IMG/VR virus record: IMGVR_UViG_3300028571_000037 | Location: 1-54,681 of that record | Source of the DNA: a virus | Lineage: Duplodnaviria > Caudoviricetes | Strand: one strand, 5' to 3' | Length of the DNA stretch: 54,681 nucleotides | In this document: one piece after another, positions 15,485 through 44,201 of the stretch | How positions within the stretch are numbered: position 1 is the first letter of the stretch | Layout of the letters: every line of letters begins with the position of its first letter | The notes under the pieces: model-generated | The model's input: the letters and a program-made list of their open reading frames with translations, nothing else | The model's database searches: none | What the model was told of the DNA's origin: nothing | Made by a program: the position numbers and the translations under genes

Positions 15485-17374
15485 TTATTTGACTTTCAGA
15501 ATTTTTTTTCTGAAAAGTTTCTTTTCATTCTGTAAAACAGCTAAGTATTCACCAGTTGGTAGATATCCTAAATCGAATGTTCTTGTGTATTCACCGATGT
15601 CGTACTTGCCGTTCAATATATCAATTTGTAATCTACCATTTAAATCATAGATCCCTAAAGTAACATTACCTGGTTCAAAAATTTTGAACTTCAAAGTAGT
15701 TTCACCTTCTGTTGGATTTGGGAAAAGTACCATATCATTATATTCAAAATTACCATCGGTTTTGAAGATTTGTAAGATTCCGTCTGTTGGTGTAATTTTT
15801 AAGTCTTTTGATGAACGATTTCCAGCAAATTTACGAGTGACATATAGAGGTGATTTGTTCCAATTGACTTGAGTTGATTTAGCACGGAAAACTAATGTAA
15901 AAAATATCTCACCATCTTGTATCAAATTTTGATTGTTTGACGGATCATATCCTCCCCACTCAACAACATTGTCATTTGGGTTAATATATGAGACCCAGTT
16001 CCCTGGTTTTTGTTCGTTTACAAGTTCTACAAATTCTAACAAATCAGAGTCGTATTTCATAGCAACTTGGAGAGACCCAAGTTCTACCATTCCCGTTTTT
16101 AATTTTACAGGAATATTCACCAAGTCACCTTCATTTACCGCCAAGGTAGGAAAGTTTACTTCAATTGTCTCCAAGTCCATATCGTAATGAGTTGTTACAT
16201 CTATGATACGTTGGTTAGCGTTGTTTGGGTTCACAATTTCAATCGGAATCATACGAGCCATTTTGAAACCAGTACCATTAGCATCACCAGGTGAAGCTAC
16301 ATAATATGTAACTGAGTCCGGTTCATTACTACCAATTAACTTTGTGAAGTTTGTTTGACCAGGTATAGTACTCCTCAAGTTTGAAGTCGAACCATTAATT
16401 GTGTTATATTCTGTTTGACTAAAGAACAATACGTCGGATACTGAATTGACCCAAGATGTAAATCTTCCTGACACTCTAGCAAAAATCGAATAAACATCCG
16501 ACACAGAAATGGAGTTGTCACCGTTTACATCAGAAGTGTAGAAATCAAAACCTGAGGGTTGATTTACACCCAAGATAAATTTATTTACTTGTTGAGCATC
16601 TGTAGTTGTTACGATATTTCCATATCCCAAAGTATCACCCTTCACGTTGATTCTAACGTTCCATGCTGAAGTATCAACACTTACATTAGTAAAGTCCCAT
16701 CTTCCATCAACACCCGAAGTCGATGTTGCCACCGAAGACCAAGAAGATGAATTTTTTAGTGACTTTTCCAATACTACGGGAATATTTTTAGCTCCCAAAC
16801 CTGTTACATTTAAGAAACGACCTTTATAGGTAAACGTTTGTGGTAAAAATGCCCCACCAAAATTTTCTAATCCGAGTGTGTAATCATTACCTAATTGCGA
16901 AGTTGCTAGTTGTGTAAATGATGATCCACCCACAAAAGTCATTGAAGTTGGGTTCAGATACGTAGTTGACAAGGTTGAGTTATGATTGAGTGTTAGAGTA
17001 AACATCGATCCATTTGGTAAAGTAAAGTTTGGATCTGTACCCGTATAGGTCATTGTAATTGTTACATACCCCGCGGTGGGGTTATCCCTATATTGTAGAT
17101 AATTCGAGAAGTTTGTGTTTGACACAATAATTGAATCAACACCCGAAAATGCTGTTTGATCATAAAAAACCCTGAACTGTGTTGCCGTTACTTTATCTGT
17201 GGTGCTATTGTAGTAACATAATCCTATGTTAGTTTTACCATCAGAGTAAGAACCTAATTGATAAGTTTGGTCTAGTGTGATAAATGCACCTGAGTTTGTG
17301 GGTGTTGGACATGTTTGAGCCCGTGTAGTCAAGAATAAAAGAAACATTCCGACAGTCAAAATAACTTTTTTCAT
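15485..17374 (-). CDS. Cohesin- and dockerin-like protein with T9SS C-terminal sorting domain
   Basis: Signal peptide; cohesin-like QFRVFYD and GDLVNIPVKL...SLQVAMKYDSDLLEF; dockerin-like SDVNGDNSISVSD; CTD LFPNPT...IYDLNGR...LPTGEYL...KKILKVK. Confidence 0.85.
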   Translation of the reverse strand: MKKVILTVGMFLLFLTTRAQTCPTPTNSGAFITLDQTYQLGSYSDGKTNIGLCYYNSTTDKVTATQFRVFYDQTAFSGVDSIIVSNTNFSNYLQYRDNPTAGYVTITMTYTGTDPNFTLPNGSMFTLTLNHNSTLSTTYLNPTSMTFVGGSSFTQLATSQLGNDYTLGLENFGGAFLPQTFTYKGRFLNVTGLGAKNIPVVLEKSLKNSSSWSSVATSTSGVDGRWDFTNVSVDTSAWNVRINVKGDTLGYGNIVTTTDAQQVNKFILGVNQPSGFDFYTSDVNGDNSISVSDVYSIFARVSGRFTSWVNSVSDVLFFSQTEYNTINGSTSNLRSTIPGQTNFTKLIGSNEPDSVTYYVASPGDANGTGFKMARMIPIEIVNPNNANQRIIDVTTHYDMDLETIEVNFPTLAVNEGDLVNIPVKLKTGMVELGSLQVAMKYDSDLLEFVELVNEQKPGNWVSYINPNDNVVEWGGYDPSNNQNLIQDGEIFFTLVFRAKSTQVNWNKSPLYVTRKFAGNRSSKDLKITPTDGILQIFKTDGNFEYNDMVLFPNPTEGETTLKFKIFEPGNVTLGIYDLNGRLQIDILNGKYDIGEYTRTFDLGYLPTGEYLAVLQNEKKLFRKKILKVK

Positions 17375-36246: not shown

Positions 36247-36927
36247 ATGACACAAAAGGAAAAAATCTTATTTAAAATGATGAGTTCATACATTCAGAAA
36301 ATGGGTTGTGATAGTGCCGAAATGATGGGTGAATATTGGGACGACGAACTCTTTAGTGACCGAAATTTTAATTGTAAAGGTGGTGGAACATATAAATTTC
36401 CATTTGATGCAAGTGATGTTATAAACGGTTGGGTGGATAGTTTAGATTTAGATATCAATTCATACGAGGACGAAGGTCTGAATTCAGTGTGGTTAGAAAT
36501 CAGTCCAAAAGATAATAGTATATCAGTAATTGCCGGTTTTTCTGAAACCCAATTGGGGGAAGAGCAACTAATTGTTGAAACACTATCTGATAAGTGGGGT
36601 GTTGAGGGGCTAAAAAAAGAACTTGAAAAAGAATTCGGAGATTTCAAATTAATCGAAGTTCAATTCAATGGTTATGGTGACTCAGGTGGTTTGGAAGGTA
36701 TAAAAGTTGACGGTGAAGAATATGGTTCAGACCAAATTCCATATTCATTAAAGAACGTACTTTATGGTATGTTGGGTGAATTCGGAGGATGGGAAATTGA
36801 TTCAGGATCTGAAGGATTTTTCGATATAGATTTGGAAAATGATAAAGTTGTATTACATTTTCATTGGAACGAACAAGTTGATAGACCTGAAACACTACAC
36901 CGAGAAGAAATTGAAACTAAAATTTAA
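36247..36927 (+). CDS. DUF6878-like acidic protein
   Basis: V-FNGYGDSG...GWEIDSGSEG motif; TATTTAT at 36236. Confidence 0.7.
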   Translation: MTQKEKILFKMMSSYIQKMGCDSAEMMGEYWDDELFSDRNFNCKGGGTYKFPFDASDVINGWVDSLDLDINSYEDEGLNSVWLEISPKDNSISVIAGFSETQLGEEQLIVETLSDKWGVEGLKKELEKEFGDFKLIEVQFNGYGDSGGLEGIKVDGEEYGSDQIPYSLKNVLYGMLGEFGGWEIDSGSEGFFDIDLENDKVVLHFHWNEQVDRPETLHREEIETKI

Positions 36928-36942
36928 CTTATACAGAAATAA

Positions 36943-37174
36943 ATCAACAAAGTTCTGTCGCTCTACGGAGAGGAAACTCAGGACATCACACGCTTAAGGT
37001 GGGAGATATAAGTCAACAAACTTATAATGGTTAGTTATAAGTCCTTATCCTTATATCACTTTACCACCGAGGATGCAACCCAAAACAGTCCATGACGGTG
37101 AGCTGGTCGGACAAGGTGGGGGCAAATAGACTAATGACAGATTAAATACAGAATCTTGGTTATACTTTGTTGAT
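36943..37174 (+). ncRNA. rnpB: RNase P RNA, compact (232 nt)
   Basis: P1 36943-36953/37164-37174; P2 TCTGTC/GACAGA; P3 CTC-tacg-GAG; GAGGAA followed by P4 AAC-T-CAGGA pairing with TCTTG-GTT inside ACAGAA..TTAT; P5 CATC/GATG followed by CAA; AGA-nn-AATG before P2 3-prime. Confidence 0.88.
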
Positions 37175-37180
37175 ATAAAC

Positions 37181-37252
37181 ACCTCCTTAGGTTAATGGAT
37201 AAACCTCTTCACTACGGATGAAGTATTGGGAGTTTGAATCTCTCAGGGGGTA
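37181..37252 (+). tRNA. tRNA-Arg(ACG)
   Basis: ACCTCCT/AGGGGGT-A, CTTCA-CTACGGA-TGAAG; T-loop reads TTTGAAT rather than TTCGAAT. Confidence 0.88.
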
Positions 37253-37304
37253 CAAAAAAATACTTGGATATTCAAAAATTTGGTGTATCTTTGTATAACA
37301 AAAT

Positions 37305-37449: not shown

Positions 37450-37523
37450 GCAGAAGTAGCTCAGTTGGTTAGAGCGCAAAACTGTTAATTTTGATGTCCT
37501 TGGTTCGAGTCCAAGAGGGGGAG
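37450..37523 (+). tRNA. tRNA-Asn(GTT) with unpaired acceptor stem (chimeric)
   Basis: D, anticodon (CAAAA-CTGTTAA-TTTTG) and T arms intact, but GCAGAAG cannot pair with AGGGGGA. Confidence 0.75.
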
Positions 37524-43788: not shown

Positions 43789-44201
43789 TGGTGGAGGTGA
43801 GCGGAGTCGAACCGCTGTCTTGCTCAGTTTACCCATAAAGGACTACATGCTTAGGTCAGGGTTTGTCGTACCCTCCGAAATATTTGATTCCTTTTTTTTC
43901 CATCGTTATCAACAACTATGGGGTGTTCACTCAAAACCGGCAGAACACCAAACATTACCTCCATTCCTTTTAAGATAGAAACCACACCATAAGGACTTCT
44001 GTTTCAAGGTATATGTCCCCCTCGACCCATTGTTATTATAGCCTAAGCTACAGTAACTCCCTCGGTTTGGATTAGACCCAAAGCCTCAAGTGTTGCGAAA
44101 GTATCGCCTTTTGATTTTTGCTTCCATAGATTAAAGTGATAGGAAACATCTCACTGCATGCCCCGTATGACTAACTCTGCCAATCAATACCCGGCACCCC
44201 C
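43789..44201 (-). ncRNA. ssrA: tmRNA (413 nt)
   Basis: 5-prime GGGGGTG pairs with CACCTCC-ACCA (G3:U70); GAC-AGCGG-TTCGACT-CCGCT T arm; GCATG/CATGC helix; tag ORF 44108-44043. Confidence 0.95.

What the first reader, a model, noticed from the sequence alone, without database searches (positions are those of the whole stretch)
36943..37174. Compact phage RNase P RNA with rewired P4 and reduced specificity domain
Seen: catalytic-domain helices P1-P5 are present. P4 is AAC-U-CAGGA/UCUUG-GUU, compared with canonical AAG-U-CCGGG/CCCGG-CUU, so the substitutions keep pairing and the bulged U. Only 84 nt lie between the P5 strands, folding mainly as one extended arm (GGTGG/CCACC, GATATAAG/CTTATATC, ACTTATAA/TTATAAGT), and I see no clear P8/P9 cruciform or CR-III motif. 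Established: bacterial RNase P RNAs are usually well over 300 nt, and the S-domain reads the tRNA T-loop. Inference: a minimal ribozyme with relaxed T-loop recognition, consistent with the neighbouring RNAs that have odd T-loops (37181, 37778).
Basis: partly seen in the sequence, partly recalled or inferred. Interest (0 to 1): 0.8.

Follow-up and report, generated by a model that had tools for sequence, protein, structure and literature searches.

The report
Phage-encoded miniature RNase P ribozyme gene
A large uncultured freshwater phage carries, directly in front of one of its own tRNA genes, a 232-base cut-down copy of RNase P RNA (the ribozyme that trims the front end of new tRNAs) that keeps the whole catalytic half and has replaced the tRNA-elbow-reading half by a dispensable hairpin.

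Summary
Window 36943-37174 (+) is an RNase P RNA homologue. Infernal matches the archaeal RNase P model end to end at exactly these coordinates, at 44.4 bits, below the 84-bit curated cut-off. Wider scans missed it.

It belongs to a family of at least 70 distinct sequences in large phage contigs and metagenomes. P1-P7, P15-P17 and both pseudoknots (P4, P6) are kept by compensatory changes. On 37 aligned members, 88.7% of cells pair against 76.4% in shuffles, 0 of 500 shuffles as high.

The region between the P7 strands is not a reduced specificity domain. It is a hypervariable insert, 17-26 nt in 23 of 37 members, and it differs between RNAs with 96-99% identical cores.

The gene usually ends a few bases before a same-strand tRNA. 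No RnpA gene was found in 16 records.

Most likely it is an active, S-domain-less ribozyme that uses the host protein subunit to mature phage tRNAs. Activity is inferred, not shown.

I found no paper describing it. Earlier agents of this scan noted the same family on other genomes.

The parts
36943..37174 (+). whole RNase P RNA gene (232 nt)
   Evidence: RF00373 full-length match, 44.4 bits, at exactly these coordinates; P1 closes the molecule
36943..36953 (+). P1 5' strand; pairs with 37164-37174
   Evidence: 11 bp in the fold; P1 sequences differ completely between family members yet still pair (script table)
36954..36959 (+). P2 5' strand UCUGUC; pairs with GACAGA 37136-37141
   Evidence: Compensatory change in the relative G001 (GGUGUC/GACACU); 4 of 6 pairs change on both sides in A2
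36961..36970 (+). P3 mini-hairpin CUC-UACG-GAG
   Evidence: Register chosen by covariation; 86.9% of cells paired; P3 is 50-600 nt larger in other members
36970..36983 (+). CR-I GAGGAAA plus P4 5' strand AAC-U-CAGGA (36975-36983, bulged U 36978)
   Evidence: P4 is 99.3% paired, with 2 pairs covarying. Invariance of the CR-I letters is by construction, because they were part of the search pattern.
36984..36987 (+). P5 5' strand CAUC; pairs with GAUG 37072-37075
   Evidence: 99.3% paired; 4 of 4 pairs change on both sides
36992..36996 (+). P6 pseudoknot 5' strand GCUUA in J5/7; pairs with UGAGC 37099-37103 in the P17 loop
   Evidence: 100% paired in 37 sequences; 2 pairs with changes on both sides
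36998..37002 (+). P7 5' strand GGUGG; pairs with CCACC 37064-37068
   Evidence: 100% paired; one pair G-C 28 / A-U 9
37003..37063 (+). hypervariable arm in place of the specificity domain (helices 37005-37012/37050-37057 and 37020-37027/37035-37042)
   Evidence: Folds as one hairpin. Absent (17-26 nt) in 23 of 37 members, and of unrelated sequence in members with 96% identical cores.
37076..37078 (+). J5/15 linker CAA
   Evidence: Last A invariant, the other two at least 90% conserved in A2. Its role at the cleavage site is recalled from bacterial RNase P work, not tested here.
37079..37121 (+). P15 (37079-37081/37119-37121), P16 (37088-37091/37109-37112), P17 (37094-37096/37106-37108) and the GGU motif 37115-37117
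   Evidence: P15 98.2%, P16 85.1% and P17 99.1% paired, all with pairs changed on both sides. G, G and U are invariant or at least 90% conserved.
37128..37136 (+). CR-IV-like joining region AGACUAAUG before the P2 3' strand; no P18 hairpin
   Evidence: AG....AU invariant in A2. 7 of 37 members have extra hairpins here.
37148..37161 (+). CR-V ACAGAA plus P4 3' strand UCUUGGUU
   Evidence: 92 of 105 pattern matches have this element pairing at least 7 of 8 with the P4 5' strand
37175..37253 (+). 6-nt spacer and tRNA-Arg(ACG) 37181-37253, the likely first substrate
   Evidence: ARAGORN. In 44 of 68 family loci with room, a same-strand tRNA starts 16-20 nt after the P4 3' strand.

Best explanation
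This is a phage-encoded RNase P RNA of bacterial type-A ancestry.

It keeps the complete catalytic domain:
- helices P1-P5 and P15-P17;
- the P4 and P6 pseudoknots;
- the CR-I, CR-IV and CR-V joining regions;
- the J5/15 linker CAA;
- the GGU motif that in bacteria binds the tRNA 3' end.

It has lost the specificity domain. What lies between the P7 strands is a dispensable, fast-changing hairpin.

It is transcribed with the phage's tRNA array, as the 5' leader of tRNA-Arg(ACG). RNase P cleavage at that tRNA's 5' end, first by the host enzyme and later by the phage enzyme, gives the RNA its 3' end.

The mature RNA most likely binds the host's RnpA protein and trims the 5' leaders of the phage's many tRNAs, and perhaps its tmRNA. 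It would recognise substrates through the acceptor end only.

Shown: homology, structure under selection, phage location and linkage to tRNA genes. Inferred: catalysis, the protein partner and the order of processing.

The confidence of 0.65 is for the whole mechanism. That it is a genuine RNase P RNA homologue under selection I put above 0.9.
For: Homology:
- Full-length Infernal match, with similar sub-threshold matches in relatives (34.3, 47.2 and 25.1 bits).

Family:
- 105 pattern matches were examined. 92 have a P4 partner strand, giving 70 distinct cores of 143-307 nt.
- 13 IMG/VR phage contigs of 14.6-225 kb carry it, one of them complete with terminal repeats.

Selection on structure:
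- 88.7% of cells pair against 76.4 +/- 0.5% in shuffles, with 0 of 500 shuffles as high.
- Slid controls give 33-47%.
- 34 of 52 pairs show changes on both sides.

Functional motifs outside the search pattern are conserved: the GGU, the CAA linker, AG....AU and ACAGAA.

Context:
- 61 of 70 loci hold same-strand tRNAs.
- 44 of 68 loci have a tRNA starting 16-20 nt after P4.

Plausibility:
- The E. coli and P. furiosus C-domains alone cleave substrates. They need a P6-like contact and do not need P18 (PMC5839562, abstract).
- The phage family keeps P6 at 100% pairing and mostly lacks P18.

RNA-library contigs from three studies cover parts of the gene. One 151-nt contig is identical over 37111-37261, spanning the RNA's 3' part, the spacer and the tRNA.
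Against: - No activity data exist.
- The score is below every Rfam RNase P cut-off.
- The RNA-library contigs cannot show ends or strand, and may come from DNA in the library.
- No RnpA gene was found in 16 records, so the protein partner is a guess. Most of those records are fragments.
- 23 of 68 loci have no tRNA within 40 nt downstream, so the leader arrangement is common but not universal.
- 13 of 105 pattern matches lacked a P4 partner; some are cut by contig ends and others are chance.
- P1 (65.6%) and P2 (82.4%) pair less well in A2, because MAFFT shifted these strands in 12 rows. Their support rests on my script, which found P1/P2 in 57 of 70.
- Members were fetched with a sequence pattern, so conservation inside that pattern proves nothing.
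Confidence: 0.65

Rival explanations
1. RnpA sponge or decoy. The RNA folds like the catalytic domain only to capture the host's RNase P protein. This would starve host tRNA maturation or redirect the protein, with no catalysis of its own.
For: No phage RnpA was found, so any protein must be the host's. The only earlier viral precedent I found, an orthopoxvirus RNase P-like RNA, was inactive in vitro and was discussed as a possible decoy (PMC3001073, passages).
Against: A decoy needs only the protein-binding surface. Here the substrate-side elements are also kept under selection: the GGU motif, the J5/15 CAA linker, the bulged U in P4, ACAGAA, and the P6 contact that C-domain catalysis depends on. 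The tight link to a downstream tRNA fits an enzyme of tRNA processing.
Confidence: 0.1
2. Cis-only element. The RNA acts just once, as a self-cleaving leader that frees the tRNA behind it, and has no role in trans.
For: 44 of 68 loci place a tRNA 16-20 nt after the P4 3' strand, about 3-7 nt after P1. Tethered RNase P-tRNA constructs that cut themselves have been made in the laboratory (recalled, not checked in a paper here).
Against: 23 of 68 loci have no tRNA within 40 nt, yet they keep the same structure. Loci with none in the fetched DNA include L027, L041, L050, L067 and L068. A 6-nt tether from the end of P1 may be too short to reach the active site (inference).
Confidence: 0.1
3. Decaying pseudogene or chance resemblance. 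A fragment of a host rnpB gene picked up with tRNA genes and now without function.
For: It is below all Rfam cut-offs. The specificity domain is missing.
Against: 70 distinct versions keep ten helices through changes on both sides. Cores down to 59-60% identity to the window still pair. Only 4 matches turned up in the genomes of 185,579 prokaryote species: two on 530- and 635-bp contigs and one with no P4 partner. So this is not ordinary host DNA.
Confidence: 0.03

Closest known systems
Bacterial type A RNase P RNA (rnpB / M1 RNA; Rfam RF00010)
   Same: The catalytic-domain plan is the same: P1-P5, the P6 pseudoknot from J5/7 to the P17 loop, P15-P16-P17 with GGU in the internal loop, a 3-nt J5/15 linker, CR-I/IV/V, and a P2 of 6 bp. 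The type A RNA of a Flavobacteriales MAG shares the CR-I...GGACA and ACAGAAUCC.G.UUA ends. It has no hairpin between P15 and the AG....AUG region, and it has a small hairpin between the P2 and P4 3' strands, as some phage members do.
   Different: There is no P8-P14. The window RNA is 232 nt, and the smallest members are 193-201 nt by my script, against 340 nt in that MAG. It is encoded by phages. RF00010 gives no match at E <= 1 on the window. The P4 sequence is AAC-U-CAGGA, not AAG-U-CCGGA.
Archaeal type T RNase P RNA of Thermoproteaceae (Rfam RF02357; PMC3579882)
   Same: It is a natural RNase P RNA that keeps the catalytic domain and lacks most of the specificity domain, and it was missed by the older Rfam models (abstract and section 5).
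   Different: Type T has a 3-bp P2, a 2-nt P5/P15 linker and a shortened P15, keeps stubs of P8/P9/P10, and is a cellular archaeal gene with archaeal proteins. The phage RNA has a 6-bp P2, a 3-nt linker, no P8/P9 and a bacterial-style P6/P15-P17.
Engineered C-domain-only RNase P RNAs (Eco CP RPR, Pfu C-domain; PMC5839562)
   Same: These show that a catalytic domain without the S-domain still cleaves, that it needs a P6-like contact, and that P18 is then dispensable (abstract). This is the feature set the phage family conserves.
   Different: They are laboratory truncations with reduced efficiency. The phage RNAs are natural, diverse and under selection.
Orthopoxvirus RNase P-like RNA (described in PMC3001073)
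   Same: It is a virus-encoded RNA with some resemblance to RNase P RNA (passages).
   Different: It comes from a eukaryotic virus. It showed no pre-tRNA processing in vitro and had only a small effect on host RNase P. No tRNA-array context or covariation-supported full catalytic core is described in the passages I read.

Membership tests
RNase P RNA (Rfam clan CL00002, any type) | P4 helix formed by CR-I and CR-V, with a bulged U | tested here: met
   36975-36983 with 37154-37161; 99.3% paired and two pairs covarying in 37 sequences; 92 of 105 pattern matches have the partner strand
RNase P RNA (Rfam clan CL00002, any type) | P1-P2-P3 closing helices and P5 in the standard order | tested here: met
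   Folds; P5 has 4 of 4 pairs covarying; P1/P2 found in 57 of 70 by script
RNase P RNA (Rfam clan CL00002, any type) | Score at or above a curated Rfam gathering cut-off | tested here: not met
   44.4 bits against 84 for RF00373. No RF00010 match at E <= 1. No RNase P hit among the 150 listed of 169 gathering-level matches in 19 family loci; the 19 unlisted score under 48.2 bits.
RNase P RNA (Rfam clan CL00002, any type) | Endonucleolytic removal of pre-tRNA 5' leaders | not testable with these tools
   Needs a cleavage assay
Bacterial type A (RF00010) | P6 pseudoknot and P15-P16-P17 with a GGU motif | tested here: met
   P6 100%, P15 98.2%, P16 85.1% and P17 99.1% paired, with covariation; GGU at 37115-37117 conserved
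Bacterial type A (RF00010) | Specificity domain P8-P14 with CR-II/CR-III | tested here: not met
   61 nt between the P7 strands fold as one hairpin. 23 of 37 members have only 17-26 nt there.
Archaeal type T (RF02357) | 3-bp P2, 2-nt P5/P15 linker and shortened P15 (PMC3579882, section 5) | tested here: not met
   P2 is 6 bp and the linker is CAA, 3 nt. cmscan kept RF00373, not RF02357, as the best clan member.
Archaeal type A (RF00373) | P8/P9 cruciform and P10-P12 arm; archaeal host | tested here: not met
   The Infernal alignment forces the arm onto P8/P9 with mispairs. A window protein carries a Por_Secre_tail domain, which I recall as typical of Bacteroidota. Stray copies sit in Bacteroidota MAGs.

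The most novel reading that the evidence does not exclude
Large phages carry their own lineage of natural, specificity-domain-free RNase P ribozymes. The ribozyme is made as the 5' leader of one of its own substrates, so that it releases itself. It keeps phage tRNA (and tmRNA) maturation running independently of host rnpB expression, possibly even without any protein subunit. It tolerates inserts in P3 and P7, including a homing-endonuclease gene. If so, tRNA 5' processing would be one more core translation function that viruses encode. It would also give a natural minimal bacterial-type RNase P for mechanistic work.
Probability: 0.35. Interest if true: 0.85.

Novelty: new variant of a known kind. 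Interest (0 to 1): 0.8.

Why it matters
RNase P RNA is regarded as a strictly cellular (and organellar) gene.

A phage-borne family would add tRNA 5' maturation to the translation functions that large phages bring with them, alongside tRNAs and tmRNA.

These RNAs are natural experiments in how little of the ribozyme is needed. The catalytic domain with P6 is kept, while the specificity domain and usually P18 are gone. This matches what truncation studies found in the test tube (PMC5839562, abstract).

At 193-240 nt they may be attractive for structural and kinetic work.

They also show a blind spot of standard annotation. None of the copies I scanned reaches an Rfam cut-off.

Tried and rejected
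**Pattern and model searches**
- my first collection pattern (CR-I, a gap of 140-170, then CR-V) was mis-specified. It had one N too many before the final TTA, so it would not have matched the window itself. Its 13 hits look like coding or chance sequence. This says nothing about the family.
- the gene upstream (36247-36927) has one relative (79% identity) in IMG/VR. There the RNase P RNA is not next to it but 9.7 kb away, so that gene is not a linked partner.
- finding the RNA ends by constrained folding with 130 nt of flank over-extended P1. An anchor-based script did better. It still failed for 8 of 70, and it latched onto an upstream tRNA arm in 5 of 70.
- a further script for those cases was unreliable, and I do not use it.
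The MAFFT alignment misplaces P1-P3 in 12 of 37 rows.

**Searches that found nothing**
- blastn of the window RNA and of the L022 RNA against 50,697 GenBank phage records found no match. This is weak, because short conserved cores fall under the E-value limit. An earlier agent's note of a copy in a cultured phage was therefore not confirmed here.
- looking up that note by words found nothing.
- CCA-adding-type enzyme genes are in 2 of 5 records and not in the window. No conclusion drawn.

**Reads**
- No RNA-library contig covered 36800-36931.
- Depth over the tRNAs is dominated by other organisms' tRNAs.
- Neither point is used as evidence.

**Literature**
- Searches found no paper on a phage-encoded RNase P RNA.
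- Subscription journals are not in the library.

**Not used**
- Complex prediction, structure prediction and the protein homology searches.

Full report
**What is there**

The window is a whole IMG/VR virus record of 54,681 bases, which CheckV estimates as 23% complete. It is therefore a fragment of a phage of roughly 200 kb or more. It holds 12 tRNA genes by ARAGORN, and 13 tRNA hits and a tmRNA by Rfam.

The finding lies in a 1.2-kb stretch without convincing ORFs. This stretch begins 15 nt after the stop codon of the ORF at 36247-36927 and is packed with tRNAs.

**Checking the observation**

The standard Rfam scan of the window found no RNase P, nor did an E-value scan of 1.6 kb. With only 258 bases given, so that the filters are lax, Infernal reported one strong match. 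It is RNaseP_arch (RF00373), model positions 1-288, at 36943-37174, with 44.4 bits and E = 1e-11 against a gathering score of 84.

RF00010 found nothing at E <= 1. So covariance-model support exists, but below the curated cut-off.

**Relatives**

The neighbouring protein led to a related phage contig. Its record holds a 263-nt homologue (34.3 bits), again directly before a tRNA-Arg(ACG). The two RNAs are 89% identical, and the differences are informative:
- P2 changes from UCUGUC/GACAGA to GGUGUC/GACACU.
- The G-U pair in P4 becomes G-C.
- A 31-nt hairpin is inserted between the P2 and P4 3' strands.

My first collection pattern was faulty (see Tried and rejected). A second pattern found 4 real homologues. 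A pattern spanning CR-I, P4 and J5/7-P7 then gave:
- 14 stretches in IMG/VR;
- 86 in metagenomes;
- only 4 in one genome each of 185,579 prokaryote species.

Of those 4:
- Two are 530- and 635-bp contigs in Bacteroidota MAGs.
- One has no P4 partner strand.
- One lies in a mixed bin that also holds a bacterial and an archaeal RNase P RNA.

Of 105 pattern matches, 92 have a downstream ACA[GA]AA followed by an 8-nt strand that pairs at least 7 of 8 with the P4 5' strand. They give 70 distinct cores of 143-307 nt.

The carrying IMG/VR contigs are 14.6-225 kb. One of them, at 183,648 bp with direct terminal repeats, is rated 100% complete.

**Structure under selection**

I aligned 37 of the 70 distinct members (A2), choosing those with a short P3 and ends that my script found reliably. 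I counted my helix map on this alignment, including both pseudoknots.

| Measure | Observed | Control |
|---|---|---|
| Cells forming a standard pair | 88.7% | 76.4 +/- 0.5% in shuffles; 0 of 500 as high |
| Same, partners slid by 1-3 columns | | 33-47% |
| Covariation score | 0.352 | 0.151 in shuffles |
| Pairs with changes on both sides | 34 of 52 | |

Per helix:

| Helix | Cells paired | Covariation |
|---|---|---|
| P4 | 99.3% | C-G 28 / G-C 9, and A-U 26 / G-C 9 / C-G 1 |
| P5 | 99.3% | 4 of 4 pairs covary |
| P6 | 100% | 2 pairs covary |
| P7 | 100% | |
| P15 | 98.2% | C-G 19 / A-U 10 / U-A 7 / G-C 1 |
| P16 | 85.1% | |
| P17 | 99.1% | |
| P1 | 65.6% | |
| P2 | 82.4% | |
| P3 | 86.9% | |

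P1, P2 and P3 score lower because MAFFT shifted these strands in 12 rows. An anchor-based script found a P2 of at least 5 of 6 pairs, with an adjoining P1 of at least 8 pairs, in 57 of 70. The strand sequences are quite different from member to member.

Caveat: the members were fetched with a sequence pattern, so the invariance of GAGGAAA, UC, GGA and UUAAGGU is by construction. The covarying positions were free (N) in the pattern or lie outside it.

**What is kept and what is lost**

Conserved outside the pattern:
- the J5/15 linker CAA;
- GGU in the P16/P15 internal loop;
- AG....AU before the P2 3' strand;
- ACAGAA.

From my recall of bacterial RNase P work, these are the elements that contact the cleavage site, the tRNA 3' end and the catalytic metal ions.

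The region between the P7 strands is another matter.
- 23 of 37 members have only 17-26 nt there.
- L055 and L081 are 134/136 identical in the core, but have 62 and 16 nt in the arm columns.
- L070 is 131/137 identical to the window, with an arm of unrelated sequence.

So the window's 61-nt arm is a recent, dispensable insert, not a slimmed specificity domain. The family as a whole is S-domain-free.

Other variable sites:
- P3 ranges from a 3-bp stem with a UACG loop in the window to about 50 nt.
- Seven of the 37 aligned members have hairpins before CR-IV, several with GNRA-like loops.
- Seven of the 37 have a hairpin between the P2 and P4 3' strands.

**Context**

Of the 70 loci, 61 hold same-strand tRNA genes and only 2 hold opposite-strand ones.

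Of 68 loci with at least 120 nt of downstream sequence, 45 have a same-strand tRNA starting within 40 nt of the P4 3' strand. In 44 of them it starts at 16-20 nt, a few bases after P1. The tRNAs are Lys 26, Arg 7, His 5, Trp 5, Thr 1 and Leu 1.

Several members also abut a tRNA upstream. In L022 the flanking tRNAs end 6 nt before the RNA and begin 5 nt after it.

The ribozyme is thus normally the leader of a tRNA, and RNase P cleavage would define its own 3' end.

**Partner and host**

No RnpA (PF00825) was found in any of 16 records, including the complete one, while the control genomes gave a match.

A window protein (15485-17374, minus strand) has a Por_Secre_tail domain. I recall this domain as typical of Bacteroidota.

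The stray copies in MAGs are in Algoriphagus and Flavobacteriales bins. The Flavobacteriales bin also has its own normal type A RNA (196 bits). That host-phylum RNA shares the end motifs. It lacks a hairpin before AG....AUG, and it has a small hairpin between the P2 and P4 3' strands, like some phage members. This hints that the phage gene came from such hosts.

**Expression**

The DNA occurs in lake-water and sediment metagenomes of several studies.

In RNA libraries kept as contigs, pieces of 62-148 nt lie within the gene in X18. One of 141 nt lies there in X20. One 151-nt contig in X15 is identical over 37111-37261, spanning the RNA's 3' part, the spacer and tRNA-Arg.

This is a weak hint. 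Contigs show neither ends nor strand, and DNA may be present in such libraries.

**Mechanism and rivals**

The best reading is an active, C-domain-only RNase P RNA that uses host RnpA to mature phage tRNAs.

Truncation work gives direct plausibility. C-domains alone cleave, they depend on a P6-like contact, and they do not need P18 (PMC5839562, abstract).

A pure protein decoy, a cis-only leader and a dead relic are less likely, for the reasons given under Rival explanations.

**Comparison with known forms**

It works like, and descends from, bacterial type A RNase P RNA, but it fails that family's S-domain criterion and its Rfam cut-off.

It parallels archaeal type T in having lost the S-domain, but it fails the type T hallmarks: a 3-bp P2 and a 2-nt linker (PMC3579882, section 5).

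**Novelty**

Six literature searches found no report of a phage RNase P RNA.
- One paper notes that megaphage genomes gave only tRNAs and a tmRNA with Rfam (PMC8172020, passages).
- The only viral precedent I found is an inactive orthopoxvirus RNase P-like RNA (PMC3001073, passages).

Blastn found no copy in 50,697 GenBank phage records.

Earlier agents of this scan described the same or sister families on other genomes. These are unreviewed notes, not independent evidence.

Noticed in passing
L025:11118-11675 (minus strand); the same arrangement in L118: In two family members the P1/P2 5' strands lie 663 nt upstream of CR-I. A 185-aa ORF with an HNH-type motif sits inside the P3 loop, and its end runs into CR-I. 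The ribozyme gene is therefore interrupted by a nuclease gene.
   Followed up: partly
window 37457-37515: Rfam tRNA match covering model positions 8-63 only (48 bits). ARAGORN does not call it. The flanks do not form a normal acceptor stem by eye.
   Followed up: no
window 36996-37003 and 37113-37120: The 8-mer AAGGUGGG occurs twice in the RNA, once at J5/7-P7 and once at the GGU loop-P15 (noticed when a script anchor hit the wrong copy). Whether the first copy has a role is unknown.
   Followed up: no
window 15485-17374 (minus strand): 629-aa protein with a C-terminal Por_Secre_tail (type IX secretion sorting) domain, E = 1.3e-8. This is a hint that the host is a Bacteroidota bacterium.
   Followed up: no
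window 43789-44201 (minus strand): Phage-encoded tmRNA, 73.1 bits, full length. It would also need 5' processing by RNase P.
   Followed up: no
G015 (genome holding L035): C270:674-1053, C323:157-467, C179:4362-4726: A MAG labelled Altiarchaeales holds a bacterial type A RNase P RNA (260.6 bits), an archaeal one (75.8 bits) and a phage-type one (21.7 bits). The bin looks mixed.
   Followed up: no
G008:C1:25872-26330 and 90214-90612; G010:C1:30353-30886: Two of five family-carrying phage records encode PolyA_pol-family (CCA-adding-type) proteins. The window does not.
   Followed up: no
window 37181-37253: The tRNA-Arg(ACG) right after the ribozyme has the T-loop UUUGAAU instead of the usual UUCGAAU (alignment). 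The same tRNA follows the ribozyme in relatives.
   Followed up: partly
L016:1713-1743 (G001), also L074, L091, L044, L073 and others: A hairpin of 20-40 nt is inserted between the P2 and P4 3' strands in some members. A small hairpin sits at the same site in the Flavobacteriales MAG's own RNase P RNA.
   Followed up: partly
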